From positions 107,476 through 127,475 of the IMG/VR virus record IMGVR_UViG_3300027974_001778: a DNA stretch of 20,000 nt; one strand, 5' to 3'. Source of the DNA: an uncultured virus (IMG/VR IMGVR_UViG_3300027974_001778). Taxonomy: Duplodnaviria > Heunggongvirae > Uroviricota > Caudoviricetes. Positions 1-12,420 of this stretch are shown here, one piece after another; position 1 is the first letter of the stretch, and each line of letters begins with the position of its first letter. Below the pieces are notes generated by a model. That model had not been told where the DNA came from and did no database searches. It saw nothing but the letters and a program-made list of their open reading frames with translations. Both the position numbers and the translations under genes were made by a program.

Positions 1-8
1 TTCCATTG

Positions 9-82
9 TTGGAATAGATGGACTCGAACCATCGACATTCACCGTATCAGGATGACGCTCTAACCAACTGAGCTATATTCCA
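9..82 (-). tRNA. tRNA-Ile(GAT)
   Basis: Reverse complement folds as a cloverleaf: TGGAATA/TATTCCA acceptor, TCATC-CT GAT AC-GGTGA anticodon arm, GGTTCGAGTCC T arm. Confidence 0.93.
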
Positions 83-94
83 TTGTTGTTGGTA

Positions 95-102
95 CAAAGA
101 TA
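95..102 (-). promoter_or_regulatory. Bacteroidetes-type -7 promoter element TATCTTTG upstream of tRNA-Ile
   Basis: Matches TAnnTTTG; the same motif recurs upstream of other transcription units in this window. Confidence 0.6.
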
Positions 103-117
103 CTAATTTTATTTTAT

Positions 118-152
118 AAAAAAAATCCCCCTGACTTTTAATCAGAGGGATT
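118..152 (-). terminator. Intrinsic terminator after ORF 176-625
   Basis: AATCCCTCTGA/TCAGGGGGATT hairpin followed by a long T run on the minus strand. Confidence 0.75.
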
Positions 153-175
153 CAATATTAAATTTAAAAAATATA

Positions 176-625
176 CTACTTTAAAAATCTTAATTTGTAT
201 ATTGTTGAATAAATTAATTCTTGAACCGTATCTATTTGGTTTTGAATAAACGATTCTTTAACTCCTTTTCTTACTTTTTCAATCATGTAGTCTAATGATT
301 TAAAATAATTAATTACTTGGTCAACACTTTTATAATCCTCAGTTTTTGCTGAGTCATAATTTTTAACAAGGTCGTACTTACCTTGGTAACTTTCGATAAT
401 ACCGTCCACTAATTTGTCTATACCCTCATAATATCCTTGTAATGCTTTATGTTCTGAATATGATTTGGTTTGTAAATGAAAAATATGAACTTGAGTTTGA
501 GAATGTAATAGTGTTGATACCATATTCTTAAATCCTGAGTTACTTTTAGTTTCAGACTTATTTTCCTGCTCATTCAAATGCATCACTTTGAATAGTTGTT
601 CTTTTGTTAATGTTAATTTATCCAT
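176..625 (-). CDS. Ferritin/Dps-like four-helix-bundle phage protein (DUF5856-like)
   Basis: HIFHLQTKSYSEHKALQGYYEGIDKLVDGIIESYQG resembles the Dps H..H/D..E helix pattern; TATTTAT motif just upstream. Confidence 0.7.
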   Translation of the reverse strand: MDKLTLTKEQLFKVMHLNEQENKSETKSNSGFKNMVSTLLHSQTQVHIFHLQTKSYSEHKALQGYYEGIDKLVDGIIESYQGKYDLVKNYDSAKTEDYKSVDQVINYFKSLDYMIEKVRKGVKESFIQNQIDTVQELIYSTIYKLRFLK

Positions 626-660
626 ACAGATAAATAGTCAACATATTCAAAAAATATTTG

Positions 661-732
661 GGTCAACGGACGGTATCGAACCGTCTTCCCGAGCTCCACA
701 AACTCGTGCTTCACCTTAAAGCTTCAAAGACC
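661..732 (-). tRNA. tRNA-His(GTG), acceptor stem with mismatches
   Basis: CGAGT-TT GTG GA-GCTCG anticodon arm, GACGG TTCGATA CCGTC T arm, G-1:C73 extended stem GGTCTTTG/CGTTGACC. Confidence 0.8.
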
Positions 733-737
733 ATATG

Positions 738-811
738 TTGCGAGAGGCAGATTTGAACTGCCCACCTCAGGGTTATGAATCCTGCGCTCTCACCAAATGA
801 GCTACCTCGCA
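738..811 (-). tRNA. tRNA-Met(CAT), possibly initiator-like
   Basis: TGCGAGG/TCTCGCA acceptor, CAGGA-TT CAT AA-CCCTG anticodon arm. Confidence 0.85.
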
Positions 812-817
812 GTTTAG

Positions 818-889
818 AGGTTCTATTAGGATTCGAACCTAAACTCCAAAATCCGTAGTTTTGTGTGCTATCCGTTACACCATAAAACC
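818..889 (-). tRNA. tRNA-Arg(ACG)
   Basis: GGTTTTA/TAGAACC acceptor, CAAAA-CT ACG GA-TTTTG anticodon arm, GGTTCGAATCC. Confidence 0.92.
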
Positions 890-967
890 TTAGTCACGGT
901 CATTGTCCCATTTTACAACAAGCATCAAAATAACCCATAATAATAATAACCACATATTTTTTTCCAT
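890..967 (-). CDS. Putative 25-aa single-TM micropeptide MEKNMWLLLLWVILMLVVKWDNDRD
   Basis: Hand translation; fills the tRNA-Gln/tRNA-Arg spacer almost exactly; hydrophobic core with charged tail. Confidence 0.45.
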   Translation of the reverse strand: MEKNMWLLLLWVILMLVVKWDNDRD

Positions 968-971
968 TTTG

Positions 972-1042
972 TTATCCGACCTGGATTCGAACCAGAAATG
1001 ACAGTACCAAAAACTGTAGTGTTACCGTTACACCATCGGACA
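972..1042 (-). tRNA. tRNA-Gln(TTG)
   Basis: TGTCCGA/TCGGATA acceptor, ACAGT-TT TTG GT-ACTGT anticodon arm. Confidence 0.93.
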
Positions 1043-1047
1043 ATATG

Positions 1048-1121
1048 TGGACCAGATAGGAATCGAACCTATTACCTTCACATTATGAGTGTGCCGCTCT
1101 AACCGAATGAGCTACAAGTCC
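1048..1121 (-). tRNA. tRNA(CAT), probably Ile2 (lysidine-modified) rather than Met
   Basis: GGACTTG...GCACA-CT CAT AA-TGTGA...CTGGTCCA; second CAT tRNA in the array. The Ile2 assignment is inference. Confidence 0.8.
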
Positions 1122-1124
1122 ATG

Positions 1125-1211
1125 AAGCTAAACATTGCTTTCAGGGTTGAAATGGCTCACAGATAAATCCGAATCACCACCTACTGATTTTACAGTATCT
1201 TAGTTTAACTT
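1125..1211 (-). ncRNA. Candidate structured spacer RNA
   Basis: Closing stem AAGTTAAAC/GTTTAGCTT plus TACTG/CAGTA hairpin, flush between two tRNAs. Confidence 0.35.
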
Positions 1212-1214
1212 TTG

Positions 1215-1296
1215 TGGGAGTAGCTGGACTCGAACCAACGAACTCGAAAGAGGGAAGATTTACAGTCTTCTGCCATTGCCACTAGGCGATACTCCC
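1215..1296 (-). tRNA. tRNA-Tyr(GTA)
   Basis: GGGAGTA/TACTCCC acceptor, GAAGA-CT GTA AA-TCTTC anticodon arm, long variable arm. Confidence 0.95.
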
Positions 1297-1301
1297 AAAA
1301 A

Positions 1302-1430
1302 TCAGGAAAGAGGAAGATGGTTCAGTGGACATCCTCTTTTACGATTGGCATTACTAATGGTAGTTTAAACTCCGACGATGTCTTATTCCAACCACTACCA
1401 GGTATTTACATCATCATTCCCCAATCAACC
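1302..1430 (-). ncRNA. Candidate pseudoknotted ncRNA
   Basis: Stems GATTGG/CCAATC and TGGTAGT/ACTACCA, crossing GATGATGT/ACATCGTC, 3' hairpin AAAGAGGA/TCCTCTTT. Confidence 0.5.
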
Positions 1431-1435
1431 TTTAG

Positions 1436-1508
1436 CACGCACGAAAGGGGTCGAACCTCTGACACATAGTTTTGGAGACTACTGCTCTACCATCTGAGCT
1501 ACGCACGT
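1436..1508 (-). tRNA. tRNA-Trp(CCA)
   Basis: GTAGT-CT CCA AA-ACTAT anticodon arm; ACGTGCG/CGTGCGT acceptor; G73. Confidence 0.92.
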
Positions 1509-1514
1509 GTTTAC

Positions 1515-1760
1515 TTAATTAATAAATTCTTCTGTGTTTATGTTATGTTCGTCTAATATTTCGTATATCTTTCCAAACACTAACTCTAAAGTTTCGTACT
1601 TATCAACATCTTTACCTTCTAAAGACCACTCTAAAGACTTTTTAGTATTATGGGTAATTTCCCATAATGCCATAGCCATATCAAAAGACTTAACCGCTCT
1701 TTTATGAGCAATTACTTCATCTTGGTCATTTAAATCAAATTCTAATATTCCTTTTGCCAT
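1515..1760 (-). CDS. Hypothetical phage protein (81 aa)
   Basis: ATG ORF filling the Cys-Trp tRNA spacer, protein-like composition. Confidence 0.8.
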   Translation of the reverse strand: MAKGILEFDLNDQDEVIAHKRAVKSFDMAMALWEITHNTKKSLEWSLEGKDVDKYETLELVFGKIYEILDEHNINTEEFIN

Positions 1761-1774
1761 AATATATATTTTTG

Positions 1775-1846
1775 AGGTCGATACAGGATTCGAACCTGTG
1801 TAAATAGTTTTGCAGACTACCGCCTAATCCACTCGGCCAATCGACC
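1775..1846 (-). tRNA. tRNA-Cys(GCA)
   Basis: GGTCGAT/ATCGACC acceptor, GTAGT-CT GCA AA-ACTAT anticodon arm, U73. Confidence 0.94.
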
Positions 1847-2032
1847 ATTTAACGTTTCTTTAATTTTATATTTTTTACATCTTTTTTTAGGTATCTCAAC
1901 ATAATATGAACCAAATACAGAAATAAAAAGTCCAACATAGTTTTCTCCTTGTTCACTAACTTCTTGTAAAACGGTTCCTTCATATAAATGAGGAAAAATA
2001 TCCGCGCTATCTTTTTTTACAACTACTTTCAT
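1817..2032 (-). CDS. Hypothetical protein (71 aa); 3' end overlaps tRNA-Cys
   Basis: ATG ORF with A-rich upstream region; its stop TAG lies inside the tRNA. Confidence 0.6.
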   Translation of the reverse strand: MKVVVKKDSADIFPHLYEGTVLQEVSEQGENYVGLFISVFGSYYVEIPKKRCKKYKIKETLNGRLAEWIRR

Positions 2033-2044
2033 TTTAATTTATTT

Positions 2045-2263
2045 TTAATGTGTTCCGTTTGTTAATGAAATCCCATGCCTTACTCCTGTAATGAAATCTT
2101 CAATTTCTTCTTCGGTCATATTGTTATATCTCTTACCGACAGTATGTCCAATCTCATTACCACAATCACTTAAATCTCCTTCGTATATTGTTACATCTGA
2201 TTTTCCTTTCAAAGATACAGAAATCCAAGATAAATCACTACTGTTAAATGTTCTTTTTTCCAT
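2045..2263 (-). CDS. Hypothetical protein (72 aa)
   Basis: ATG ORF tightly packed with its neighbours. Confidence 0.7.
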   Translation of the reverse strand: MEKRTFNSSDLSWISVSLKGKSDVTIYEGDLSDCGNEIGHTVGKRYNNMTEEEIEDFITGVRHGISLTNGTH

Positions 2264-2268
2264 ATTTT

Positions 2269-2892
2269 TTAATTTAATGAATTTGGGTAATACAATAATG
2301 TCGGGTTCTTTTTTTGGATATCAACCTCGGGATATCTTTCCTTAAATTTCATCACATTAAAAGGTTGAGTTATAATATGGAACCCACTTCTTGTTTTAAT
2401 AAAAGTCATTCCTTGTTCTTTTCCCGCCTCTTTCTGTAACTCGTTTATATATTCTCTCATTTTAATTTGACTTGGAGAATGGTTAAATCCATCAATGGAT
2501 ACATTATCAATATCAATAATCCATCTTTTCTCTTGAGTCTTTATCTGTCCCACAACCGAGTCAAATAACCCCTTTTGGTTCTGAACTCCATTCTTAATTC
2601 TCTCAGCCAAACTTGCCAACATATCCAAAGACACATCTCTGTGATTTTGTTTCTGAACATGAATGTAAGCTCTTGCCTTGAACATCTCACATAATTGCAT
2701 CACCTCATCATATCTCCTTTCCAAATGGTCAACTGATTCAATGCAATATGTTTTAATAGTTCTAACCGACTGATGGTTATCTCTTTCTCCTTCAGGTTGG
2801 TCTTTCTTACGTTTGAAAACATACAGCATATAGAAGTCACCCTTCTCCTCAAAGTTCAATAATGGTTTTATTATGTCTATATTGTTTATCAT
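2269..2892 (-). CDS. Phage protein with AEP (primase-polymerase)-like motifs
   Basis: WIIDID and KTRSGFHII resemble AEP motifs I (hhhDhD) and II (S/TxxGhH). Start reassigned to ATG 2892 because the longer ORF start lies in a T-arm. Confidence 0.55.
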   Translation of the reverse strand: MINNIDIIKPLLNFEEKGDFYMLYVFKRKKDQPEGERDNHQSVRTIKTYCIESVDHLERRYDEVMQLCEMFKARAYIHVQKQNHRDVSLDMLASLAERIKNGVQNQKGLFDSVVGQIKTQEKRWIIDIDNVSIDGFNHSPSQIKMREYINELQKEAGKEQGMTFIKTRSGFHIITQPFNVMKFKERYPEVDIQKKNPTLLYYPNSLN

Positions 2893-2906
2893 ATCATTTT
2901 TTTTTG

Positions 2907-3009
2907 TTGTTAAGGTGGGATTCGAACCCACAACGTAGTCTCGTAAAGAGAATCATCACCGTTTCGACTTACCGAGCCCTGTGCTCGTTTACATATCTAC
3001 TACTTAACT
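2907..3009 (-). ncRNA. tRNA-like RNA lacking canonical D and anticodon arms
   Basis: GTTAAG/CTTAAC acceptor-like stem and perfect GTGGG TTCGAAT CCCAC T arm; interior has other hairpins. Confidence 0.55.
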
Positions 3010-3010
3010 T

Positions 3011-3345
3011 CCTACCCCACTTCACCAGCTTAACGGACTGGCTGCCATATGGGAGTGGGGGTTTCCCGTTAATTCGGGACTCCGCGATGTTGCGGGAATC
3101 GAACCCACTCGATGAACTACTTGTGATATGCACCAACCATTTGCTCCAATCCTAGTATTAAGGAGTGTTACCTACAAATCACCATCATTCAACCCTTTAA
3201 CACCAAATTTGACTACTGACTGACTCCTTTCGAACTTTGAGGGTTTGTATCATTCAATATCAGTAGTCCAAGGCTGTAGGAGCTCATCTTTACACTTAGG
3301 CTCTTTGTCTTCTCATGTTGCAACATTTACGACCGTAGCGTCACC
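3011..3345 (-). ncRNA. Candidate large structured ncRNA (~335 nt) with internal T-arm
   Basis: No credible ORF, higher GC, many complementary segments, a predicted pseudoknot, GTGGG TTCGATT CCCGC. Confidence 0.55.
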
Positions 3346-3352
3346 TTGTTTG

Positions 3353-3425
3353 TGGTACGAGGTGGGTTCGAACCACCGACAACTTGTTCTTCAGACAAGC
3401 ACTCTACCAACTGAGTTATCGCACC
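3353..3425 (-). tRNA. tRNA-Phe(GAA)
   Basis: GGTGCGA/TCGTACC acceptor, CTTGT-CT GAA GA-ACAAG anticodon arm. Confidence 0.94.
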
Positions 3426-3430
3426 AAGTT

Positions 3431-3500
3431 TAAAGTTAAAGTCGCCCACACTTGTTCGGGGCGGGACCTTTCGGTCACCTTCGACATCCCCTCAACTTTA
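3431..3500 (-). ncRNA. Candidate 70-nt multi-stem RNA
   Basis: TAAAGTTGAGG/CTTTAACTTTA closing stem, GACC-GAAA-GGTC GNRA hairpin, CGCCC/GGGCG stem. Confidence 0.45.
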
Positions 3501-3713
3501 ATTCACTTCAATATCTTCCAAAGGTACATCTTCTCCCTGAGTATGTTTATAAACTGTATTAAAAAACTCTCCTAACAATCTATAGTCCTCAGGAATCATA
3601 TGACAAAAATCAAATGCAGGAATTGCACCATGAATTTGACCTTGTACTACCTTATCAAACTTATCATCTGGTTTGTACTCAAACACAGTATGTCCTCTAA
3701 AAATATATTTCAT
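3498..3713 (-). CDS. Hypothetical protein (71 aa)
   Basis: ATG ORF, co-oriented with the operon. Confidence 0.7.
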   Translation of the reverse strand: MKYIFRGHTVFEYKPDDKFDKVVQGQIHGAIPAFDFCHMIPEDYRLLGEFFNTVYKHTQGEDVPLEDIEVN

Positions 3714-3714
3714 A

Positions 3715-3814
3715 ACTTCCGATTTTGTCTTGTTTTTACTTCCGAATTTGGACGGGTTTTACTTCCGACTTTGTCACTGCTCACATTTGAGGAAGTTTAC
3801 TGCTCAAATTTGAG
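3715..3814. repeat. 23-bp periodic imperfect repeats
   Basis: ACTTCCGA..TTG at 3715, 3738 and 3761; ACTGCTCA.ATTTGAG at 3776 and 3799. Confidence 0.7.
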
Positions 3815-3821
3815 ATTTATG

Positions 3822-3894
3822 TAGTCCCTGTAGGAATCGAACCTACGACAACTTGCATGTAAGGCAAGTGCTCTTCCAACTGAGCTAAGAGACT
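3822..3894 (-). tRNA. tRNA-Val(TAC)
   Basis: AGTCTCT/AGGGACT acceptor, CTTGC-CT TAC AT-GCAAG anticodon arm. Confidence 0.93.
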
Positions 3895-3899
3895 AAATG

Positions 3900-3973
3900 T
3901 ATCGCGTACGGGGCTCGAACCCGTAATCTTCATCGTGAAAGGATGACGACTTAACCAATTTGTCCAACGCGAC
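3900..3973 (-). tRNA. tRNA-Glu(TTC)
   Basis: GTCGCGT/ACGCGAT acceptor, TCATC-CT TTC AC-GATGA anticodon arm. Confidence 0.94.
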
Positions 3974-3983: not shown

Positions 3984-4015
3984 CAAAGATACAACCAATA
4001 TTTCAAAGAGCCAAA
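3984..4015 (-). promoter_or_regulatory. Bacteroidetes-type promoter TTTG-N20-TATCTTTG directly upstream of tRNA-Glu
   Basis: -33 element at 4012-4015, -7 element at 3984-3991. Confidence 0.6.
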
Positions 4016-4018
4016 AAC

Positions 4019-4053
4019 AAAAAACCCTGAACTTCATTTCTGTAGTTCAGGGT
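4019..4053 (-). terminator. Attenuator terminator 1
   Basis: 10-bp stem ACCCTGAACT/AGTTCAGGGT plus T tract; 5' arm is complementary to leader segment 4105-4114. Confidence 0.85.
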
Positions 4054-4075: not shown

Positions 4076-4186
4076 TTAGTTTAAAAAATTATTCAAAATT
4101 ATATCCGAACTACATGACTGCATACGCTCATACCAACAAGTTTCTTGTTGTTGACTAAAGACTGTATGTTTTATTGTAGTTCTCAT
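4076..4186 (-). CDS. Putative attenuation leader peptide 1 (36 aa, MRTTIKHTVFSQQQETCWYERMQSCSSDIILNNFLN)
   Basis: ATG 18 nt after a consensus promoter; codons match the downstream tRNA set; contains the antiterminator strand. Confidence 0.75.
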   Translation of the reverse strand: MRTTIKHTVFSQQQETCWYERMQSCSSDIILNNFLN

Positions 4187-4204: not shown

Positions 4205-4235
4205 CAAAGATATGAAAAAATCTTTGAGTGTCAAA
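4205..4235 (-). promoter_or_regulatory. Bacteroidetes-type promoter TTTG-N19-TATCTTTG for leader 1
   Basis: -33 element at 4232-4235, -7 element at 4205-4212. Confidence 0.75.
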
Positions 4236-4914: not shown

Positions 4915-4920
4915 ATACAT

Positions 4921-5010: not shown

Positions 5011-5014
5011 ATTG

Positions 5015-5088: not shown

Positions 5089-5094
5089 AAATTT

Positions 5095-5296: not shown

Positions 5297-5378
5297 TATC
5301 AGAGGTGGGACTCGAACCCACACGAGCAAAGCTCAACAGATTTTAAGTCTGTCTTGTATACCATTCCAACACTCTGAC
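5297..5378 (-). tRNA. tRNA-Leu(TAA)
   Basis: ACAGA-CT TAA AA-TCTGT anticodon arm, long variable arm. Confidence 0.94.
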
Positions 5379-5387
5379 ATTGTTTTA

Positions 5388-5395
5388 CAAAGATA
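5388..5395 (-). promoter_or_regulatory. TATCTTTG -7 element upstream of the tRNA-Leu/Arg/Leu unit
   Basis: Matches TAnnTTTG, 9 nt upstream of the tRNA. Confidence 0.6.
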
Positions 5396-5418
5396 GTGAA
5401 TATCTTTAATAAAGTCAT

Positions 5419-5451
5419 AAAAAAACCCCGAACTTTTTTAGTCGGGGTTTT
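5419..5451 (-). terminator. Intrinsic terminator after ORF 5469-6188
   Basis: AAAACCCCGA/TCGGGGTTTT hairpin plus T tract. Confidence 0.8.
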
Positions 5452-5468: not shown

Positions 5469-6188
5469 TTAATCATTAAAACTTTCCTCGTAATAAGTAT
5501 CGCTTGCGTTATCTTCTATATTTTCTGTATGAACCAATTCGATTGTCATATCATGAAAATTGAATATAAATTGTCCATCAGAACCTTCATTAATTTCCCA
5601 ACCACTATAGTTATCACTAAGCTCTCTGTAACACCAATCTTCAATTGCAGCTGGAACTCCATCACCTGTTTCATTAAAACTACTTTCAAGATATCCCGAA
5701 TCACCAGAACCATTATATGTTACTATTAAAATCCCATCGTCAGGAATTGTAAGGTCTTCTAATACTCCACTTTCTTCCCATTCTTCAAATAGCTCCTTTC
5801 CTTGTTCATCCTCCCAAGTAACTGAACTACCTTCTCCTCTAGTATAAAAAGACCACCAACGAGTAAAACTAATTTTTTTAGAATCTACGTCAATGTCGTA
5901 TTCAAGTCTTTGATAATTCGTATCATCATTATCAGGTTCTCTAATTAAATTATTATCATCGCAATATTTCATAATTTTTTGAAGTATTGGAATCAATCCT
6001 GATGGAATATCTGCATTGTAGTTATTAGTGAAATGGGTTACATAATCCCAATCAACATTGTCATAATCAAATTCCTCTTGATTATCCATATCAATTTCAA
6101 TGTTGCCGTCTTGCATTCCCATTGAACCTAAGTAATTGGATATTCTTCTTAAATATTGTTTTTCTTCTGGTGTTAAAATTCCTTTCAT
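5469..6188 (-). CDS. Acidic protein with C-terminal DUF6878-like domain
   Basis: YNGSGDSG...SGWEINEGSDGQF motif, recalled as DUF6878-like; sits next to a DUF6915-like gene. Confidence 0.6.
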   Translation of the reverse strand: MKGILTPEEKQYLRRISNYLGSMGMQDGNIEIDMDNQEEFDYDNVDWDYVTHFTNNYNADIPSGLIPILQKIMKYCDDNNLIREPDNDDTNYQRLEYDIDVDSKKISFTRWWSFYTRGEGSSVTWEDEQGKELFEEWEESGVLEDLTIPDDGILIVTYNGSGDSGYLESSFNETGDGVPAAIEDWCYRELSDNYSGWEINEGSDGQFIFNFHDMTIELVHTENIEDNASDTYYEESFND

Positions 6189-6199
6189 ACTTATAAATA

Positions 6200-6553
6200 T
6201 CAGTCGTTGAACTCTAGTTTAATTGTTTTTAACATCCATTGAGGACGTTGATTTGTTGATACGTTATTTATCCATTCTTTGGCAGATGGAATGTAGTTAT
6301 TACAATCTTCTTTAACATGTTGTTCTCCAACATATCTGGTGTAGACTGTAGTCCCGTCGCTATTCTTAAATTCGGCCCCAAATCTTTTTTCCATTTCAAA
6401 AATACCCTCACTATGATGTCTAAACATTCTATGAAGTGAATCTCCAAACCATCCTTTAGTCTCATCTAACCATTCATGTAGATGAATATAGTCTTCAGGT
6501 TTTCCACCAAATTTTTTGGCGGATGATTTTGCATGTAAGTTAGGGTGTGCCAT
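6200..6553 (-). CDS. DUF6915-like His-rich protein
   Basis: HAKSSAKKFGG..EDY..HEW.D..K...HR..RHH.EG...EQHVKED pattern. Confidence 0.7.
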   Translation of the reverse strand: MAHPNLHAKSSAKKFGGKPEDYIHLHEWLDETKGWFGDSLHRMFRHHSEGIFEMEKRFGAEFKNSDGTTVYTRYVGEQHVKEDCNNYIPSAKEWINNVSTNQRPQWMLKTIKLEFND

Positions 6554-7118
6554 TTTTCCAAGAGTCTTTATTGTAGTTAAAATATACGAAATCTTCTTCT
6601 AAATAAGAATAAACATAATCAGCCAAATCTTGGTCATAATATTCTTTATAATCATATCCTGATGAATAACCGTTGTTTAAAATGTTATCATACACAATAT
6701 CAAAAAGTTCATGTGAATCATCCATAAAAAATGGAAGTTTTAATATGTCTGAGTATAAATTCTCAACTCTAATTAATAAATCAGGAGTTTTGGTAATCCT
6801 TTTTTTTAAAAAAAATTCATAATCCAAAGTTTTGCCAGGAAATTTTATTTCTTCATGCAATTTTTGTCTAATCCAACTATTAAAGTCATTAGGAATTAAA
6901 TTAGAGTGTATACAAAAAAGATGATATATTGAAATCATTCTGATATATGGATTTCTTGTATTTAAAACAAAAAAATATTCTTCTTTACCTTTTGGAATTT
7001 GCAAACCATGTAGTCCAATAACGTCAAATTCAAAGTATGTTTGAATAGGCATGCATGACCTTGCTGCCGTTCTAATAGGTGTTGCCCACAATACTTTATA
7101 TTTGTCAGAATAATTCAT
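6540..7118 (-). CDS. Sulfotransferase family 2-like protein
   Basis: RNPYIRMISIY (3'-PB motif), IRVENL and YKEYYD...EDFVYFNY; the 5'-PSB motif (PIRTAARS) is divergent. Confidence 0.7.
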   Translation of the reverse strand: MNYSDKYKVLWATPIRTAARSCMPIQTYFEFDVIGLHGLQIPKGKEEYFFVLNTRNPYIRMISIYHLFCIHSNLIPNDFNSWIRQKLHEEIKFPGKTLDYEFFLKKRITKTPDLLIRVENLYSDILKLPFFMDDSHELFDIVYDNILNNGYSSGYDYKEYYDQDLADYVYSYLEEDFVYFNYNKDSWKNGTP

Positions 7119-7351: not shown

Positions 7352-7366
7352 AAATAAAAATTTTTG

Positions 7367-7439
7367 AGCCTCCTGTCGGACTCGAACCAACGACCACTTG
7401 TTTACAAAACAAGAGCTCTACCAACTGAGCTAAGGAGGC
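7367..7439 (-). tRNA. tRNA-Thr(TGT)
   Basis: GCCTCCT/AGGAGGC acceptor, CTTGT-TT TGT AA-ACAAG anticodon arm. Confidence 0.95.
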
Positions 7440-7442
7440 TTA

Positions 7443-7517
7443 TGGAGCAGATGAGAGGAATCGAACCTCCGTCTCCTACTTGGAAGGAAGGAGTAATGAC
7501 CATTATACGACATCTGC
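7443..7517 (-). tRNA. tRNA-Gly(TCC) with encoded CCA
   Basis: GCAGATG/CATCTGC-T-CCA; CCTTC-CT TCC AA-GTAGG anticodon arm. Confidence 0.93.
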
Positions 7518-7573
7518 GTGGAGTGCAGTGGGAGGTACCTTCCCTGTGGTTACTACACATTTTATCCACTTTG

Positions 7574-7646
7574 CGGTCCCGACGGGATTCGAACCCGTAT
7601 CTCGCACCGTGACAGGGTGGAATTGTAACCATTCAACCACGGAACC
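7574..7646 (-). tRNA. tRNA-Asp(GTC)
   Basis: GGTTCCG/CGGGACC-G acceptor, CACC-CT GTC AC-GGTG anticodon arm. Confidence 0.93.
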
Positions 7647-7674
7647 GTGTATGGGGAGTTTCACCCCAAACTTT

Positions 7675-8163
7675 TTACTCAACAAAGATATGATTATATT
7701 CCAATATTCTTCGTTTTAATTTATTAACATATTGTGGGTCCTCGGCATAAACTTTACCGAGTAATGCAAAATATTGTTTTTTTGTCATATCATTACGTGA
7801 TTTTAACATGTGGTCTTGCCACAATGAGTAATCATACACGCTATACCCCCAATCTTCGTATTTTGAGTAACCACTTTGGGTTTCCCCAATCTTTGCGGAT
7901 TCTCTTTTACTTGGAACTTTCATTCCAAAAAGATTATTAGCTGATTTGAACAACTTTGATGTAAACTCTCCTGATTCTAATATAGCTTGTGCAAACACAA
8001 TATCAGGAAATTTTATACCATACTTAATTATCTGCTCATACAAACTTTCTTTTGAGATACTCTCTTGAGTATTTGATTCAATCTGTACTTGCTTCTCTTG
8101 TGCTTTGGTTGCCATTGTTCCTAACAATAACATCCCAGTCAATAAGAATGTTTTTAACTTCAT
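7675..8163 (-). CDS. Secreted GH73 glucosaminidase/muramidase (FlgJ-like peptidoglycan hydrolase)
   Basis: Signal peptide; AQAILESG, NNLFGMK and YAEDPQY motifs. Confidence 0.88.
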   Translation of the reverse strand: MKLKTFLLTGMLLLGTMATKAQEKQVQIESNTQESISKESLYEQIIKYGIKFPDIVFAQAILESGEFTSKLFKSANNLFGMKVPSKRESAKIGETQSGYSKYEDWGYSVYDYSLWQDHMLKSRNDMTKKQYFALLGKVYAEDPQYVNKLKRRILEYNHIFVE

Positions 8164-8243
8164 TTCTTTCTTTTTGTCTGTTTATGCTTCAGGATTGCTC
8201 CATCCACGATACTACAACATTGGAATTTTTCCACCTACCGCAG

Positions 8244-8315
8244 AGGCCCCTGTAGGATTTGAACCTACGACCAGTTGATTAACAGTCAACTGCTCTACCA
8301 CTGAGCTAAAGGGCC
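8244..8315 (-). tRNA. tRNA-Asn(GTT)
   Basis: GGCCCTT/AGGGGCC acceptor, GTTGA-CT GTT AA-TCAAC anticodon arm. Confidence 0.94.
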
Positions 8316-8355
8316 TTATAATAATAAATAAAATTTCCAATAAAGGAAACTTTTG

Positions 8356-8429
8356 TCGGGATGGCTGGATTCGAACCAACGGCCTCCACGTCCCAAACGT
8401 GGCGCGATACCTGACTACGCTACATCCCG
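8356..8429 (-). tRNA. tRNA-Pro(TGG)
   Basis: CGGGATG/CATCCCG-A acceptor, CCACG-TT TGG GA-CGTGG anticodon arm. Confidence 0.95.
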
Positions 8430-8434
8430 TAAAT

Positions 8435-8465
8435 AAAAAAACCCTGAAGGATAAGTTCAGGGTTT
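8435..8465 (-). terminator. Attenuator terminator 2
   Basis: AAACCCTGAA/TTCAGGGTTT stem plus T tract ending 5 nt before tRNA-Pro; CTGAACTTA is complementary to leader segment 8504-8512. Confidence 0.85.
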
Positions 8466-8486
8466 AAATAATTGGCTATAATATTG

Positions 8487-8585
8487 TTACCAACCACTCG
8501 CTTCTGAACTTACGCATATAGTGCCCCCATCTCCATTAGGAGTTGTCGGCGTGTCTAAATTTGTATTTGTGTTCATAGTTTTCAT
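8487..8585 (-). CDS. Putative attenuation leader peptide 2 (32 aa, MKTMNTNTNLDTPTTPNGDGGTICVSSEASGW)
   Basis: Hand translation (below the ORF-track cutoff); 17 of codons 5-22 are N/T/D/P/G, matching the downstream tRNAs; contains the antiterminator strand. Confidence 0.8.
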   Translation of the reverse strand: MKTMNTNTNLDTPTTPNGDGGTICVSSEASGW

Positions 8586-8640
8586 AGTACAATATTACAA
8601 TAAATATATTCAAAATCAAATAAATCCCTATTTTAGTTTT

Positions 8641-9360
8641 TTAAGGTAATGTGTTACTACCTTTCAGGTAAAAGTCACCTACAACTTTTGGTCTTAATTC
8701 TGTACCTGAGTACGTACTATAAACTCTGTATTCCCCAACAGGAATACGAGTTCCCGTGTAATTTAAAACATAATCAGATAATGTAGAATTAGTATTGAAA
8801 GGAGTTCTATATATCATATTGGTATGCGCACTAGACATTCTTGATTGTCTCCAATTTGGGTTAGGTGTTGCATTCACAGGAATTAATACCATAATCCACA
8901 CAAATTGATTATTAACTAAAGGACCATTAATTTTAACCGTTCCAAAATTATACACACCTGCCGAAGTTTGTGTAATATTTGATTGAATGACTGTAGGTAA
9001 TGTTCCATTATACCAATACGGCATATCAATATAATTTAACAAATCAGTATAATTTGTTGATTTGATTGGTGACCCAGTAAAAAAACCATAAAATGGAGTG
9101 TTTGTCGGGGTTTGTGTACTACGAGGTCTTGTCTTTAAATAACTCACAATCATATTGAGTTTTGACTGAGGCTCAACAAAAATATAAACCTTTGGTCCAA
9201 CTGATGAAACAGTCGGAGATGTTGACATTGTTCTTAAGTCTTCTCCTTGAGTTGATTCAATTGAAGTTTGTTTAACTGGGTCATACACGTCGTCTTTTGT
9301 ACAAGATACAAATAATACCGATGTTGCGAAAATTGCAAGAAATAATTGTTTTAGTTTCAT
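8641..9360 (-). CDS. Predicted lipoprotein
   Basis: MKLKQLFLAIFATSVLFVSC lipobox; TATCTTTG promoter at 9376-9383. Confidence 0.8.
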   Translation of the reverse strand: MKLKQLFLAIFATSVLFVSCTKDDVYDPVKQTSIESTQGEDLRTMSTSPTVSSVGPKVYIFVEPQSKLNMIVSYLKTRPRSTQTPTNTPFYGFFTGSPIKSTNYTDLLNYIDMPYWYNGTLPTVIQSNITQTSAGVYNFGTVKINGPLVNNQFVWIMVLIPVNATPNPNWRQSRMSSAHTNMIYRTPFNTNSTLSDYVLNYTGTRIPVGEYRVYSTYSGTELRPKVVGDFYLKGSNTLP

Positions 9361-9678: not shown

Positions 9679-12420
9679 ATGAGAGAAATTAAATCTTTTG
9701 ATATTTTTGATACTTTAATATCAAGAACTGTTGAAAATCCGATTGATATTTTTGACATTGTTGAAAAACAATTCCCGTATAATAATTTTAAAAATTTACG
9801 AATTCAGTCACAAAATCAATCAAACCACACAATGGATTCAATTTATAATGAATTTAAAAATATCACAAATGAATCTGATGAAACCATAAATAAGTTAAGA
9901 GAATTTGAACTAATTACGGAAATGGAAAATACCATACCAATTTTTAGTAATATTTCAAAAATAAAAGACGGTGATATATTTGTTTCTGATATGTACCTGT
10001 CTTCAAATGAAATACGTAAATTACTTGATTATCATAATATAAATAAAAATACGGAGTTATTTGTTTCATCTGGAGGTAAATCAGATGGTACAATGTGGGA
10101 GGCTCTTACACAAACATATAAAATTAATTCTCATTATGGTGACAATTATCATTCTGATATAATGATGGCCTCAAGATATGGAATAAAAGGGGTTTACACA
10201 GAAGCCTATAAATTCACAGTTTTAGAATCATATCTTATTCGAAATAATGAATTTGAGTTATGTCAACAAATAAGAAAATTTAGACTTGCAAATCCATATG
10301 ATGAAAATACTATAGAATACAAAATATACGAACAACAAATTTCTTATAATATACCAATACTATTATTTATTTGTAATAAACTAGATGAAATTTTAATAAA
10401 TGAAAATCGTAATACTGTATTATTTCATTCAAGAGATGGGTGCTTATTAATAAAATTATTTTCTTACTTATACCCACAATATAAATCAATATATTTACAT
10501 TCTAGCAGAATTATTAATAATGATTATACCGATGACTATATTTCATATTTAAAAGAAAATTATGATAAAGATAGTTGTGTTTTATTTGATTTACATGGTT
10601 CATTAAACAGTGGGAAAAAACTTTTTACATCACTTTTTGAACATTTGCCTAGAATATTTATTTTTGACCTTTCTTATATTGAAAATTATATTAGTGAAAT
10701 AACATATATCACAAATTACTCAAGTAAAATAGAGGAGTTTAATCATGATTATAAAGGAACATTAGTTCAATTTATAAAGAATGAAGATATACGTACCCCA
10801 ACTGAGCATCCTCTAAAATATATTGATATAATTCATAGTATTTTTGATTCTTTTATAAAATATTTTGATGTAAATTTGAAAAAAAATCCAATATTGAACA
10901 ATAATGATTTTTTTAAAAAATATTATGTAGAAACTGTATGTAAATCTGAAACTATTTTAAAAAACCAATTTGAATTTTTGAATCTTACCAAATTAGCAAA
11001 CAAATATAACTCAGACAAAGGAAACCTTTTTTTGTGTGCTCACCATTACTCTATAAAGTACGAACAAATATTCAATGATATATTAAATTTTAAATTAGGA
11101 AGAAAAGATTTTTCTACATTTGATTTATTAGAAATTGGATTAAATATATCAACCACAGAAGAATCAATCCCATCATTAATGATATGGAATGATTATTTTA
11201 ATAAAAATATAAATATTACAGGATTTGATATAGATAATCGTTTTTCAAAATTAAATATAGACCAAAATATAGATATTAAAATTGGTGACCAATCAAGTGA
11301 AAAGGACTTATTACAATTAAAAAATAAAAACTATGACATGATAATTGATGATGGTTATCATGCGTCAAAACATCAACAAATTACATTTAAAACATTGTGG
11401 CAAAACGTAAAACCAGGAGGATATTTTATTATTGAGGATTTACATTACCAACCAGAGCCAGAAACGTGCATAAAAACAAAAGAGTTATTTGAAAATTGGA
11501 AGAGCGATAATTGGATAGAAACTGAGTATATTAACTCAGATGAAATACAAATCATCAAAAAGGATATTGAAAGTATTGAATTTTATGACTCAAGCTCAAA
11601 AAATTGGGGGGATTCCGTAAAAAACGCGTTTGTGTATATTAAAAAAAAAGAAAGAATGAATATTATAAATGAAAACACTATGAATGAAATTATACAATAT
11701 GAATTTCCAGTACCATCACAGGCGGAAGAAAAATATTATTACACAGATAAATCAGCGATTTTGAATATCAGAAACATTTTAAGTAAAAATGGTAAGTATA
11801 ATTATTGTGAAATTGGTTCTTATTTAGGAGGTTCATTAGTCCCCTTTTTAAGAGACCCTCAATGTGAGTATATACTATCAGTTGATGATAGAGGTAATAT
11901 ACAACCAGATGAAAGGGGTATTAGTTATGATTACAGGCATATTTCAACCCAAACTATGTTAGATACATTATCAAAGCATAGTTTAGATTTAACAAAATTA
12001 GAAACATTTGATGGTTCTGTACATGAATTAAATAAAAACATCAATAAATTTGATTTAGTTTTTATAGATGGTGAACATACCGATTATGCATGTTTTAGAG
12101 ACTTTATGTATTCTCAAAAATACCTAAAAGAAAATTCAGTTGTTATGTTTCATGATAGTACTTTAGTATATAAATCATTAAAAATAATACAAGAATATCT
12201 GACATGTAATAATATAGTTCATAAATTTATTAAAATTCCAAATTCATCAGTAACGTTTATTTTTTTTGGTGATTATATTTCTTTGTGTACTGAATTTGAA
12301 TCAGAAGATGTTGAAATTTTTTATAATAAGTCAGAAGAAGAGGTTCTTTACCATGTTATACAAAATAGAGTAGAGGGAAGTTTTATTATTAAAAATAAAA
12401 CATACACAATAGGTGGGTAA
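9679..12420 (+). CDS. Multidomain HAD-like hydrolase plus two class I SAM methyltransferase domains
   Basis: HAD: SFDIFDTL, VSDMYL, HYGDNYHSD. MTase 1: SDKG..LLEIG..DMIIDDGYH..KPGGYFIIEDL. Methyltransf_24-like: EIGSYLGGS..FIDGEH..FHDS. Confidence 0.8.
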   Translation: MREIKSFDIFDTLISRTVENPIDIFDIVEKQFPYNNFKNLRIQSQNQSNHTMDSIYNEFKNITNESDETINKLREFELITEMENTIPIFSNISKIKDGDIFVSDMYLSSNEIRKLLDYHNINKNTELFVSSGGKSDGTMWEALTQTYKINSHYGDNYHSDIMMASRYGIKGVYTEAYKFTVLESYLIRNNEFELCQQIRKFRLANPYDENTIEYKIYEQQISYNIPILLFICNKLDEILINENRNTVLFHSRDGCLLIKLFSYLYPQYKSIYLHSSRIINNDYTDDYISYLKENYDKDSCVLFDLHGSLNSGKKLFTSLFEHLPRIFIFDLSYIENYISEITYITNYSSKIEEFNHDYKGTLVQFIKNEDIRTPTEHPLKYIDIIHSIFDSFIKYFDVNLKKNPILNNNDFFKKYYVETVCKSETILKNQFEFLNLTKLANKYNSDKGNLFLCAHHYSIKYEQIFNDILNFKLGRKDFSTFDLLEIGLNISTTEESIPSLMIWNDYFNKNINITGFDIDNRFSKLNIDQNIDIKIGDQSSEKDLLQLKNKNYDMIIDDGYHASKHQQITFKTLWQNVKPGGYFIIEDLHYQPEPETCIKTKELFENWKSDNWIETEYINSDEIQIIKKDIESIEFYDSSSKNWGDSVKNAFVYIKKKERMNIINENTMNEIIQYEFPVPSQAEEKYYYTDKSAILNIRNILSKNGKYNYCEIGSYLGGSLVPFLRDPQCEYILSVDDRGNIQPDERGISYDYRHISTQTMLDTLSKHSLDLTKLETFDGSVHELNKNINKFDLVFIDGEHTDYACFRDFMYSQKYLKENSVVMFHDSTLVYKSLKIIQEYLTCNNIVHKFIKIPNSSVTFIFFGDYISLCTEFESEDVEIFYNKSEEEVLYHVIQNRVEGSFIIKNKTYTIGG

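What the first reader, a model, noticed from the sequence alone, without database searches (positions are those of the whole stretch)
8435..8606. Leader-peptide attenuator whose codons match the tRNAs it controls (Pro/Asn/Asp/Gly/Thr)
Seen: an unannotated 32-codon minus-strand ORF (8585-8487), MKTMNTNTNLDTPTTPNGDGGTICVSSEASGW. Of codons 5-22, 17 of 18 encode N, T, D, P or G, using several synonymous codons for each. The next five tRNA genes downstream are exactly Pro, Asn, Asp, Gly and Thr. Just 3' of this codon block, TAAGTTCAG (8512-8504) is perfectly complementary to CTGAACTTA (8460-8452), the 5' arm and loop of an intrinsic terminator. That terminator ends 5 nt before tRNA-Pro, leaving no room for another promoter. 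Known: this is the layout of trp/his/thr/ilv ribosome-mediated attenuators. Inference: stalling on any of these codons frees the antiterminator and switches on the cognate phage tRNAs. I do not know of such control having been described for phage tRNA arrays.
Basis: partly seen in the sequence, partly recalled or inferred. Interest (0 to 1): 0.95.

Follow-up and report, generated by a model that had tools for sequence, protein, structure and literature searches.

The report
Leader-peptide attenuator gating phage tRNA genes
This uncultured phage puts a tiny translated test gene, spelled in the amino acids of the tRNA genes behind it and wired to a switchable transcription stop, in front of those genes, so it probably makes more of these tRNAs when ribosomes read their codons slowly.

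Summary

- **Layout:** the 32-codon ORF (8585-8487, minus strand) has its own conserved promoter. It overlaps an antiterminator that competes with the terminator, which ends 5 nt before tRNA-Pro.
- **Translation:** in 10 distinct relatives, codons 1-22 change almost only synonymously, while the 3' end changes freely but keeps the RNA pairings.
- **Co-variation:** divergent leaders on the same RNA scaffold carry different amino-acid sets that track their own tRNA blocks. One 32-codon leader holds the 13 amino-acid types of its 14 downstream tRNAs.
- **Second leader:** the window holds another one (4186-4076). It contains all 12 amino-acid types of the remaining tRNAs.
- **Larger set:** across 30 further distinct leaders, re-pairing leaders with other blocks never reached the observed match (0 of 10,000).
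- **Caveats:** nothing is tested experimentally. In about half of the family, and at the window's second leader, a promoter box lies between terminator and first tRNA, so read-through is not the only route. Some codons are unmatched.

Ten literature searches found no published account. This scan has flagged the same system before on other DNA. I class it as a new variant of leader-peptide attenuation.

The parts
8617..8620 (-). Leader 1 promoter, -33 TTTG, 19 nt before the -7 box
   Evidence: A TTG is kept at this spacing (19-20 nt) in relatives whose DNA further upstream is unrelated.
8590..8597 (-). Leader 1 promoter, -7 box TAATATTG (Bacteroidota sigma-A type, TAnnTTTG with one mismatch)
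   Evidence: The stretch from this box to the ATG is identical in all 16 loci. The box lies at -12..-5 in Flavobacterium (PMC9723704, passages), which places the predicted start at the A of the ATG at 8585, giving a leaderless mRNA. This is inference.
8487..8585 (-). Leader ORF 1, 32 codons plus stop
   Evidence: Always 32 codons in 16 loci. Codons 1-24 show 13 synonymous against 4 non-synonymous steps (P=3e-6); codons 25-32 show 2 against 12.
8514..8582 (-). Sensor codons 2-24, upstream of the antiterminator
   Evidence: 18 of 23 encode P, N, D, G or T, the five tRNAs of the unit. 14 of 23 are read by those anticodons, or by Leu(taa), under strict wobble (read off).
8504..8513 (-). Antiterminator, 5' strand GTAAGTTCAG (codons 25-28)
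   Evidence: The GTTCAG core is invariant in all variants and sits in a different reading frame in the C-type leader.
8466..8499 (-). Inner hairpin of the antiterminator, with the stop codon TAA (8489-8487) at its loop
   Evidence: The arms differ but still pair in the most divergent A-type variant, L034.
8451..8460 (-). Antiterminator, 3' strand CTGAACTTAT: the last 5 nt of the terminator's 5' arm plus 5 nt of its loop
8435..8465 (-). Intrinsic terminator: arms 8465-8456 and 8448-8439, T-run to 8435
7366..8429 (-). Controlled unit, first part: tRNA-Pro 8429-8355, tRNA-Asn 8315-8243, 162-aa glucosaminidase gene 8163-7675, tRNA-Asp 7646-7573, tRNA-Gly 7517-7443, tRNA-Thr 7439-7366
5469..7118 (-). 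Controlled unit, second part: three protein genes (192 aa; 117 aa DUF6915; 239 aa DUF6878)
5419..5447 (-). Terminator that closes the unit, followed by promoter box TATCTTTG 5395-5388 and tRNA-Leu(taa)
4205..4212 (-). Leader 2 promoter, -7 box TATCTTTG
4076..4186 (-). Leader ORF 2, 36 codons plus stop (protein P0001)
   Evidence: Codons 2-24 contain all 12 amino-acid types of the tRNAs downstream.
4105..4114 (-). Leader 2 antiterminator, 5' strand TGTAGTTCGG
   Evidence: nascent fold -16.3 kcal/mol, z -3.3.
4041..4050 (-). Leader 2 antiterminator, 3' strand CTGAACTACA
4019..4053 (-). Leader 2 terminator: arms 4053-4044 and 4033-4024, then T-run
3984..3991 (-). Promoter box TATCTTTG between the leader 2 terminator and tRNA-Glu (3973). 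It gives block 2 a route independent of read-through
8..3973 (-). tRNA block 2: Glu, Val, Phe, Cys, Trp, Tyr, Met, Gln, Arg(acg), Met, His, Ile, with interspersed ORFs. tRNA-Ser(gct) lies just beyond the window start

Best explanation
This is a ribosome-mediated (leader-peptide) transcription attenuator that gates a phage tRNA transcription unit. It is one of two in the window.

Proposed mechanism:
1. A promoter of its own starts an RNA at or next to the ATG of a 32-codon ORF.
2. As the RNA emerges, the segment at codons 25-28 pairs with the 5' arm and loop of the terminator, around a small hairpin that holds the stop codon. This antiterminator forms first and lets polymerase run on.
3. The run-on transcript covers tRNA-Pro, Asn, a glucosaminidase gene, tRNA-Asp, Gly, Thr and three further genes, up to the next terminator.
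4. A ribosome that translates the leader without delay reaches codons 25-32 and the stop codon. It occupies the antiterminator's 5' half, so the terminator forms and transcription stops 5 nt before tRNA-Pro.
5. The preceding codons are drawn from the amino acids of the tRNAs in the unit. Slow decoding of any of them holds the ribosome upstream and favours read-through.

The unit would therefore be made when its own tRNAs are short and shut down when they suffice.

Shown by sequence analysis: the parts, their conservation, the competing folds, the signs of translation, and the match of codon sets to tRNA sets.
Inferred: the ribosome-polymerase race, the direction of control, and that tRNA supply rather than amino-acid supply is the signal.
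For: 1. **Own promoter.** The 24-nt stretch holding the -7 box and the ATG is identical in all 16 loci, and a TTG keeps its 19-20-nt spacing upstream of the box although the DNA further upstream is unrelated between lineages. A promoter-anchored search, blind to the ORF, returned the same 15 contigs as the peptide-anchored one.
2. **Translation.** Among 10 distinct sequences, codon columns 3, 8, 10, 11, 12, 13, 17 and 18 vary only synonymously, and Leu goes TTA to CTT. Only column 20 of the first 22 changes the residue. Codons 1-24 show 13 synonymous against 4 non-synonymous steps (P=3e-6 against 22% expected); codons 25-32 show 2 against 12. ORF length is fixed at 32.
3. **Switch.** In 10 of 10 variants the nascent RNA folds into the antiterminator (-11.7 to -20.6 kcal/mol, terminator alone -11.9). 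The tool's fold gives -20.6 with 0 of 200 shuffles as good, against -21.9 once the 3' arm is added.
4. **Covariation of the switch.** The pair next to the core is A-T in 21, G-C in 14, T-A in 9 and G-U in 3 of 54 distinct elements (47 paired; slid controls 23-40% on the 77-element set). Where the search left the terminator base free, GTTCGG faces C in 27 and T in 4 of 31, never A or G. GTTCAG is kept in two reading frames.
5. **Geometry.** The stop codon lies 2-27 nt after the core word in 53 of 54 elements and 22-53 nt before the terminator arm in 54 of 54.
6. **Codon sets track tRNA sets.**
   - Window leader 1: 18 of 23 sensor codons in {P,N,D,G,T}, about 2 in a million by simulation.
   - Window leader 2: all 12 types of its block, P about 1e-5.
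   - D-type leader: 21 of 23 in, and all of, the 13 types of its 14 tRNAs, which are the only tRNAs in the 15 kb behind it (0 of 2,000,000 draws).
   - C-type: 8 of 8 types. B-type: 7 of 7 types.
   - Thirty further distinct leaders: mean coverage of block types 0.95. F is the harmonic mean of that coverage and of the fraction of sensor residues whose amino acid is in the block. F is 0.842, against 0.717 +/- 0.014 when leaders and blocks are re-paired, 0 of 10,000.
7. **Codon level.** 529 of 771 sensor codons are cognate to a block anticodon under strict wobble. In leader types A-D the Arg codon matches its block's anticodon: AGA where the block has Arg(tct), CGT where it has Arg(acg). In the 30 GTTCGG-type leaders, 20 of 23 CGN codons fall in blocks holding Arg(acg). 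Ser TCN and AGY follow Ser(tga) and Ser(gct): gct only, 15 AGY against 2 TCN; tga only, 5 against 8.
8. **Unit boundaries matter.** A terminator splits off Leu-Arg-Leu in the window and G005, and their leaders have one Leu and no Arg codon among codons 1-22. No terminator intervenes in G003 and G004, and their leaders have 3-5 Leu and one Arg AGA.
9. **Host phylum.** Leader-peptide attenuation is reported as likely for amino-acid operons in Flavobacterium (PMC9723704, passage).
Against: - No experiment exists. The RNA-library contigs cannot show 3' ends or strand, and DNA carry-over is not excluded.
- A sigma-A-type box lies between terminator and first tRNA in 28 of 54 family members, and at 3991 after the window's leader 2. 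Another lies at 7690, 36 nt before tRNA-Asp. Read-through is therefore at most one of two routes for most of these tRNAs.
- Unmatched codons in the window: K2, M4, I23 and C24 in leader 1; four Thr and one Lys in leader 2.
- Ala codons occur without a tRNA-Ala in the B-type leader and in L019 and L026.
- ACT x3, CCT and GGC in leader 1 are not read by the block's anticodons under strict wobble.
- Most tRNAs are represented by one or two codons, not by runs as in his or trp, so sensitivity per tRNA may be low.
- The outer helix is only 6-7 bp in most relatives. Positions further out pair no better than slid controls.
- A leaderless start is predicted for leader 1, and such mRNAs are a minority (5.5%) in Flavobacterium.
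- The leaders and arrays are homologous, so the permutation test overstates independence.
Confidence: 0.78

Rival explanations
1. The attenuator is real, but it reads general translation capacity or amino-acid supply. Any slowing of ribosomes, including uncharged tRNA during starvation, would trigger it, rather than shortage of the particular tRNAs behind it.
For: Stalling cannot distinguish a missing tRNA from an uncharged one. Leaders sample 5-13 amino-acid types, mostly once or twice each, which looks like an integrator. The unit also carries protein genes.
Against: Within one genome the two leaders split the amino acids between them along the lines of their own tRNA blocks. Codon family follows the isoacceptor present. 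Leader content follows terminator-bounded units. A general sensor needs none of this. Making tRNA would not relieve amino-acid starvation.
Confidence: 0.15
2. The promoter-ORF-terminator unit is an autonomous small gene, encoding either a 32-aa peptide or a roughly 150-nt RNA that acts in trans. Its terminator simply ends it. The tRNAs are made from their own promoters or by incidental leak-through.
For: In 28 of 54 family members a TAnnTTTG box follows the terminator. The window's leader 2 is followed by such a box at 3991. The peptide's first 22 residues are strongly conserved. Attenuator RNAs and leader peptides with trans functions are reported for Sinorhizobium trpL (abstracts listed).
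Against: This does not explain why the ORF's 3' end overlaps a conserved, covarying competitor of the terminator. It does not explain why peptides on one scaffold change composition with the tRNA block. It does not explain how tRNA-Pro and Asn are transcribed in this lineage, where 5 nt separate T-run and tRNA.
Confidence: 0.06
3. The nascent peptide itself arrests the ribosome, as in TnaC or Erm leaders, in response to some ligand or state. The resemblance to the tRNA set is incidental.
For: Residues 1-22 are invariant at the amino-acid level in the close family and contain Pro-rich TPTTPNG.
Against: Across the wider family the peptides differ almost completely while keeping the RNA scaffold. 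What they keep is the match to their own tRNA block.
Confidence: 0.03
4. Chance: a low-complexity spurious ORF in the 3' UTR of the upstream 239-aa gene, with that gene's terminator.
For: Low-complexity windows are common: 62 of 575 ORFs. Five long ORFs are as rich in N, T, D, P and G. No terminator separates the 239-aa gene (promoter box at 9383) from the leader.
Against: The module keeps its promoter, ORF and terminator behind unrelated upstream DNA. Substitutions are synonymous. Composition tracks tRNA content in independent leader types.
Confidence: 0.01

Closest known systems
Multivalent leader-peptide attenuators of enterobacterial amino-acid operons: thr leader (Thr and Ile codons) and ilvGMEDA leader (Ile, Leu, Val). 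Recalled, not looked up here
   Same: Short translated leader, regulatory codons for several amino acids, an antiterminator competing with an intrinsic terminator, and a ribosome at the stop codon that blocks the antiterminator.
   Different: Those control biosynthetic enzymes and use runs of 2-3 amino-acid types. Here the controlled genes are the tRNAs themselves, the leader samples 5-13 types mostly once or twice, the element is viral, and no clear 1:2 protector hairpin was identified.
trp, his, leu and pheA leader attenuators. Recalled; pheL is described in PMC3082878 (abstract and one passage seen)
   Same: The same ribosome-mediated logic and terminator/antiterminator layout.
   Different: One amino acid each, in tandem runs, and the target is the pathway that makes that amino acid.
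pheST (pheM leader) attenuator and T-box leaders, which couple tRNA charging to aminoacyl-tRNA synthetase genes (recalled)
   Same: The signal concerns the state of a tRNA pool, and the output acts on the decoding apparatus.
   Different: Those targets are synthetases, not tRNA genes. T-boxes bind the tRNA directly without a ribosome. No T-box or any other Rfam family matched here beyond tRNAs.
Leader-peptide attenuation inferred upstream of amino-acid operons in Flavobacterium psychrophilum (PMC9723704, passages seen)
   Same: It shows that this mechanism is expected to work in the phylum whose promoter type (TAnnTTTG) this phage uses.
   Different: Host amino-acid operons, not phage tRNA genes.
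The same kind of element flagged by this scan in other phage genomes (notes e1-5947548, e1-5836268, e1-5943215, e1-6150450, e1-5375453 and others)
   Same: Codon-matched leader, switchable terminator and tRNA block. Several are relatives of this window.
   Different: These are unpublished AI notes, not independent evidence. I tested one lead myself, phiCbK.

Membership tests
Ribosome-mediated (leader-peptide) transcription attenuator | Short ORF in the transcript between a promoter and a terminator that precedes the regulated genes | tested here: met
   Promoter boxes 8620-8617 and 8597-8590, ORF 8585-8487, terminator 8465-8435, tRNA-Pro at 8429.
Ribosome-mediated (leader-peptide) transcription attenuator | The ORF is translated | tested here: inconclusive
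   The substitution pattern argues for it: 13 synonymous against 4 non-synonymous steps in codons 1-24, P=3e-6, with fixed length. There is no ribosome profiling or peptide evidence.
Ribosome-mediated (leader-peptide) transcription attenuator | An antiterminator mutually exclusive with the terminator | tested here: met
   Predicted in 10 of 10 variants. Fold -20.6 kcal/mol, z -3.9. Covariation at the two informative pairs: 47 of 54 and 31 of 31 paired.
Ribosome-mediated (leader-peptide) transcription attenuator | The stop codon is placed so that a terminating ribosome blocks the antiterminator, with regulatory codons far enough upstream to leave it free | tested here: met
   The stop codon sits in the inner hairpin, 15 nt after the core word. 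In the family it lies 2-27 nt after the word in 53 of 54 elements. Sensor codons end before 8513. Footprint sizes are recalled, not measured.
Ribosome-mediated (leader-peptide) transcription attenuator | Regulatory codons correspond to what the regulated genes supply | tested here: met
Ribosome-mediated (leader-peptide) transcription attenuator | Pause or protector hairpin (1:2) that synchronises polymerase and ribosome, as in trp | tested here: inconclusive
   A weak hairpin within codons 12-21 is predicted in all 10 variants, but I have no covariation for it.
Ribosome-mediated (leader-peptide) transcription attenuator | Read-through depends on leader translation and on supply of the cognate aminoacyl-tRNAs | not testable with these tools
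   RNA-library contigs only. One contig of a relative bridges leader, terminator and tRNA-Pro, which cannot show regulation.
T-box leader | Specifier loop and T-box sequence that bind tRNA; matches the Rfam model | tested here: not met
   No Rfam match other than tRNA at gathering score in the window. There were only sub-threshold chance-level hits at E up to 10 in 8300-8700.

The most novel reading that the evidence does not exclude
Phages carry a 'decoding checklist'. Each block of spare tRNA genes is preceded by a mini-gene containing roughly one codon for every tRNA in the block. This lets the phage detect, block by block, when the host's tRNAs for those codons fail, for instance after host shut-off or cleavage by anticodon nucleases of anti-phage defence, and replace exactly those. 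The design recurs on unrelated sequence scaffolds. In cultured Caulobacter phage phiCbK, a leader with Gln, Phe, Val and Ile codons and a 12-bp antiterminator precedes Phe-Val-Ile-Ile-Val-Gln-Gln. It would then be a general and so far undescribed layer of phage counter-defence and translation control.
Probability: 0.45. Interest if true: 0.95.

Novelty: new variant of a known kind. Interest (0 to 1): 0.88.

Why it matters
- **Open question.** Phage tRNA arrays are usually explained by codon usage or, more recently, as spares against host tRNA loss. How their expression is controlled is largely unknown.
- **What a matched attenuator would mean.** The phage would measure decoding of specific codons and respond by making the matching tRNAs. 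This is demand-driven feedback acting on tRNA genes themselves, which I could not find described.
- **Bearing on tRNA depletion.** It would turn the idea that phage tRNAs answer host tRNA depletion into something directly testable.
- **Practical uses.** It gives a compact natural sensor of tRNA supply for up to 13 amino acids. It also gives annotators a rule for finding unannotated regulatory mini-ORFs next to tRNA arrays.
- **Tractable system.** A cultured system with a similar layout, phiCbK on Caulobacter, appears to exist.

Tried and rejected
- **Rfam.** The whole window at gathering score gave only 20 tRNAs. 8300-8700 at E up to 10 and 2850-5400 at E up to 0.5 gave nothing meaningful.
- **GenBank phages by BLAST.** The 2.1-kb region matched only through its tRNAs, with no record covering 80%. 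Leader 2 had no match. A 555-aa carbamoyltransferase-like protein matched cyanophages at about 32%, which says nothing about the host.
- **Sigma-70 consensus scan.** 55 sites against 41 expected, so uninformative. This phage uses TAnnTTTG-type boxes.
- **tRNA-Ala co-variation.** Gly at codon 20 goes with no tRNA-Ala (3 loci) and Ala with tRNA-Ala (11 loci). Two loci (L019, L026) have the Ala codon without the tRNA, and the whole pattern may be one event. This is a weak hint only.
- **Extension of the antiterminator beyond 7 bp.** Positions further out pair in 34-42% of elements, no better than slid controls. The 9-10 bp seen in the window are lineage-specific.
- **RNA-library contigs (X1-X4).** The run with the closest strain (X1) has no listed piece over the leader. 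Pieces elsewhere cannot rank expression. One contig of a relative bridges 8318-8631. No conclusion on termination is drawn.
- **Leader before the third terminator (153-123).** It is preceded by a 149-aa ORF, not by a mini-ORF.
- **Double-glycine bacteriocin-type precursor.** Rejected: the GG is not conserved (GDAG in most relatives).
- **Per-genome own-block against other-block table.** I did not repeat it, so no such test is reported. By eye: leader 1 has 19 sensor residues of block-1-only types against 3 of block-2-only types; leader 2 has 4 against 16.
Full report
**What is there.** The window is the last 20 kb of a 127,475-base IMG/VR virus record (32.7% G+C, CheckV 41% complete). Its minus strand carries 20 tRNA genes, and a 21st lies just upstream of the window.

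Under the genome's amino-acid usage, 17 of 18 codons in {N,T,D,P,G} has P=2.4e-8. I do not lean on that figure:
- 62 of 575 ATG-ORFs have an 18-residue window dominated by five amino acids.
- Five long ORFs are about as rich in this set.
- A 9-nt complement arose in 41 of 5000 shuffles.

**The module has its own promoter.** This genome uses a strongly recurring box, TATCTTTG.
- It lies 9-12 nt before tRNA-Leu(taa), tRNA-Glu and tRNA-Ile, each time just after an intrinsic terminator, and before protein genes.
- It fits TAnnTTTG, the sigma-A -7 box of Flavobacteria, which lies at -12 to -5 (PMC9723704, passages).
- The leader has TTTG-N19-TAATATTG, ending 4 nt before its ATG. The predicted start is therefore the A of the ATG (inference).

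A search for the back-translated peptide found 15 IMG/VR stretches. A search anchored only on the promoter box and the ATG found the same 15 contigs. DNA further upstream is unrelated between lineages, while the box, a TTG at 19-20 nt, the ORF and the terminator are kept.

**The ORF behaves as a translated sequence.** The 16 loci give 10 distinct leader sequences, all of 32 codons.
- Columns 3, 8, 10, 11, 12, 13, 17 and 18 vary only synonymously, including TTA to CTT for Leu.
- Only column 20 (Gly or Ala) of the first 22 changes the residue.
- Codons 1-24 show 13 synonymous against 4 non-synonymous steps (P=3e-6 against the 22% expected); codons 25-32 show 2 against 12.

The variable 3' end keeps the word GTTCAG and a hairpin around the stop codon. 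The arms of that hairpin differ in the most divergent variant but still pair.

**The switch.**
- In all 10 variants, the RNA that exists before the terminator's 3' arm is made folds into an antiterminator. The GTTCAG region pairs with CTGAAC of the terminator's 5' arm, enclosing the stop-codon hairpin. Energies are -11.7 to -20.6 kcal/mol, against -11.9 for the terminator alone.
- For the window, the tool gives -20.6 (z -3.9, 0 of 200 shuffles) without the 3' arm. With it, the fold is hairpin plus terminator at -21.9. The outcome should therefore be decided kinetically.
- A ribosome on codons 25-32 or at the stop codon sits on the antiterminator's 5' half. A ribosome held on codons 5-19 does not reach it (coordinates; footprint sizes recalled).

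**Relatives with other leaders.** A pattern that fixed only GTTCAG, the terminator arms and the T-run found 33 stretches: the 15 known ones and 18 new ones in three groups. The table gives their leaders, translated from stored loci, and their tRNAs.

| Group | Leader length | tRNAs behind it | Match |
|---|---|---|---|
| B | 29 codons | Pro Asn Gly Asp Thr ... Leu(taa) Arg(tct) Leu(tag) | all 7 amino-acid types present; two Ala codons unmatched |
| C | 27 codons | Pro Asn Gly Gly Asp Thr Ala ... Leu Arg Leu | all 8 types present; Arg codon AGA |
| D | 32 codons | Pro Pro Lys Cys Trp Leu(tag) Val Tyr Ala Gln Met His Arg(acg) Ile | 21 of 23 sensor codons fall in, and cover all of, these 13 types; Arg codon CGT |

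For group D, these are the only tRNAs in the 15 kb behind the leader. Two others lie upstream.

In simulations with this genome's amino-acid usage, results this good occurred at these rates:
- D-type: 0 of 2,000,000 draws.
- B-type: about 1e-5.
- C-type: about 2e-4.
- Window leader: about 2e-6.

The helix next to the core word covaries between groups: A-type AAG/CTT, B- and C-type GTG/CAC, D-type G/C.

**A second leader in the window.**
- Promoter box 4212-4205.
- A 36-codon ORF at 4186-4076.
- The word TGTAGTTCGG at 4114-4105, complementary with one G-U pair to CTGAACTACA at 4050-4041.
- A terminator at 4053-4019.

Its nascent fold is the antiterminator (-16.3 kcal/mol, z -3.3), and with the 3' arm the terminator forms (-23.5). 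Codons 2-24 contain all 12 amino-acid types of the tRNAs behind it: Glu, Val, Phe, Cys, Trp, Tyr, Met, Gln, Arg(acg), His, Ile, Ser. Full coverage has P about 7e-5, and with 18 or more of 23 in the set, about 1e-5. Four Thr and one Lys codon are extra.

Relatives carry homologous second leaders whose terminator arm reads CCCCGAAC opposite GTTCGG.

**A larger set.** A pattern with GTTCGG and a free base in the terminator arm found 90 stretches, of which 80 were fetched.
- By my ORF rule, 16 of the 80 had no leader ORF.
- After also dropping duplicates and loci with fewer than five downstream tRNAs, 30 distinct leaders remained.
- On average 77% of their sensor residues belong to the block's amino acids, and 95% of the block's amino-acid types occur in the leader.
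- F, the harmonic mean of these two fractions, is 0.842, against 0.717 +/- 0.014 when leaders and blocks are re-paired (0 of 10,000). These leaders are related to one another, so this is not a count of independent events.
- 529 of 771 sensor codons are strictly cognate to a block anticodon. Ser and Arg codon families follow the isoacceptor present.

Of 71 distinct elements with enough flank, 54 have a leader ORF and a tRNA within 400 nt. The 17 others are listed and were left out. Among the 54:
- The free base pairs in 31 of 31 GTTCGG elements (27 G-C, 4 G-U).
- The neighbouring pair is kept in 47 of 54, with three Watson-Crick types.
- The stop codon lies 2-27 nt after the word in 53 of 54.

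**Unit boundaries.** In the window and in G005, a terminator and a promoter box split Leu-Arg-Leu off from the first unit. Their leaders have one Leu and no Arg codon among codons 1-22. In G003 and G004 no terminator intervenes, and the leaders have 3-5 Leu and one Arg (AGA) codon.

**Against a simple gate.**
- The gap between T-run and first tRNA is 12 nt or less in only 6 of 54 elements. In 28 of 54 it holds a TAnnTTTG box.
- The window's leader 2 is followed by such a box at 3991. A TATCTTTG at 7690 lies 36 nt before tRNA-Asp.
- Read-through would then add to promoter-driven transcription rather than be the sole source.
- Several codons are unmatched, as listed under evidence against.
- RNA-library contigs gave nothing decisive. 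One contig of a relative (1497 nt, depth 39) runs through tRNA-Pro, terminator and leader (8318-8631), but DNA carry-over cannot be excluded.

**Beyond this family.**
- Annotated terminators stand directly before tRNA blocks.
- Before Phe-Val-Ile-Ile-Val-Gln-Gln, a TTGACA-N17-TAGGGT promoter-like site is followed by the ORF MSKTYRQFVRQIQVVRNIRAGRSRMADEGFRD.
- Eight of its 16 sensor codons are Gln, Phe, Val or Ile. Its codons 18-22 can pair over 12 bp with the terminator's 5' arm.
- Its nascent fold is -53.6 kcal/mol (z -4.6); with the 3' arm added the terminator forms.
- The match is looser than in the window's family, with three Arg codons extra.
- The genome paper does not contain 'attenuat' or 'leader'. 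It reports that Rfam found no RNA elements other than tRNAs (PMC3556154, term search and passages).

**Novelty.** Ten searches of the held library found no account of leader-peptide or attenuator control of tRNA genes. The library lacks most subscription journals. I recall older E. coli work on tRNA-Phe genes only vaguely, and one search for it returned only unrelated papers. This scan has flagged the same system repeatedly on other DNA, including relatives of this window.

The mechanism is the classical one. New here are:
- the target, which is tRNA genes;
- the checklist composition of the leader;
- the block-wise partition of codons between leaders;
- the viral setting.

Noticed in passing
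window 4690-4790 (-): A third small unit. Promoter box TATCTTTG at 4781 is followed by about 90 nt holding a 16-codon GTG-ORF and a terminator-like hairpin (GGGTAACAC..GTGTTACCC plus T-run). It faces the end of a plus-strand 150-aa ORF (4228-4680). No tRNA follows it directly, and its function is unknown. In the relative G005 this insert is absent, and leader 2's promoter follows tRNA-Leu(tag) directly.
   Followed up: partly
L007/L016 about 3120-3920; B-, C- and D-type loci (e.g. L045, L050, L049) just after the terminator: A conserved word, GTTCTTTGAC (GTTCTTTGG in the B-type loci), lies between the terminator (or the promoter box) and the first tRNA in several lineages. It is absent from the window's leader 1. 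It may be part of a promoter or of the tRNA precursor leader.
   Followed up: no
L007 3159-3915: In a relative with an identical leader and terminator, tRNA-Pro and tRNA-Asn are replaced by different Pro and Asn genes, followed by an HNH-endonuclease-like ORF. The junction lies at the 5' end of tRNA-Pro. This looks like homing-endonuclease-driven replacement of tRNA genes.
   Followed up: no
L075 2233-2390 (record G001): Upstream of the D-type leader lie a tRNA-Cys and a tRNA with anticodon CTA, called 'Pyl' by ARAGORN. The latter is a possible amber suppressor in this phage group.
   Followed up: no
window 2931-3350 (-): A 420-nt stretch without an ORF between tRNA-Phe and the next gene holds two T-arm-like words (GGGTTCGATTCCC, GTGGGTTCGAATCCCAC). 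ARAGORN and Rfam call nothing there except a 17-nt tmRNA-like fragment (E 0.015). It may hold degraded or unusual tRNA-like elements.
   Followed up: partly
window 7683-7690 (-): A perfect TATCTTTG box lies inside the last codons of the 162-aa glucosaminidase gene, 36 nt before tRNA-Asp. It is followed by a hairpin without a T-run (7668-7652). It is a possible internal promoter for Asp-Gly-Thr.
   Followed up: partly
L172 (phiCbK JX100813 46800-53000): Cultured phage phiCbK has a similar layout before its Phe-Val-Ile-Ile-Val-Gln-Gln block. Annotated gp083 (45 aa, rich in Ser, Leu, Pro and Lys but also Ala and Thr) lies before the terminator that precedes Pro-Pro-Lys-Lys-Leu-Leu-Leu-Ser-Ser.
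   Followed up: partly
window 9679-12420 (+), 13603-15270 (+): A 913-aa protein with two methyltransferase domains, and a 555-aa protein about 32% identical to cyanophage carbamoyltransferases. These are auxiliary-looking genes next to the tRNA region.
   Followed up: no
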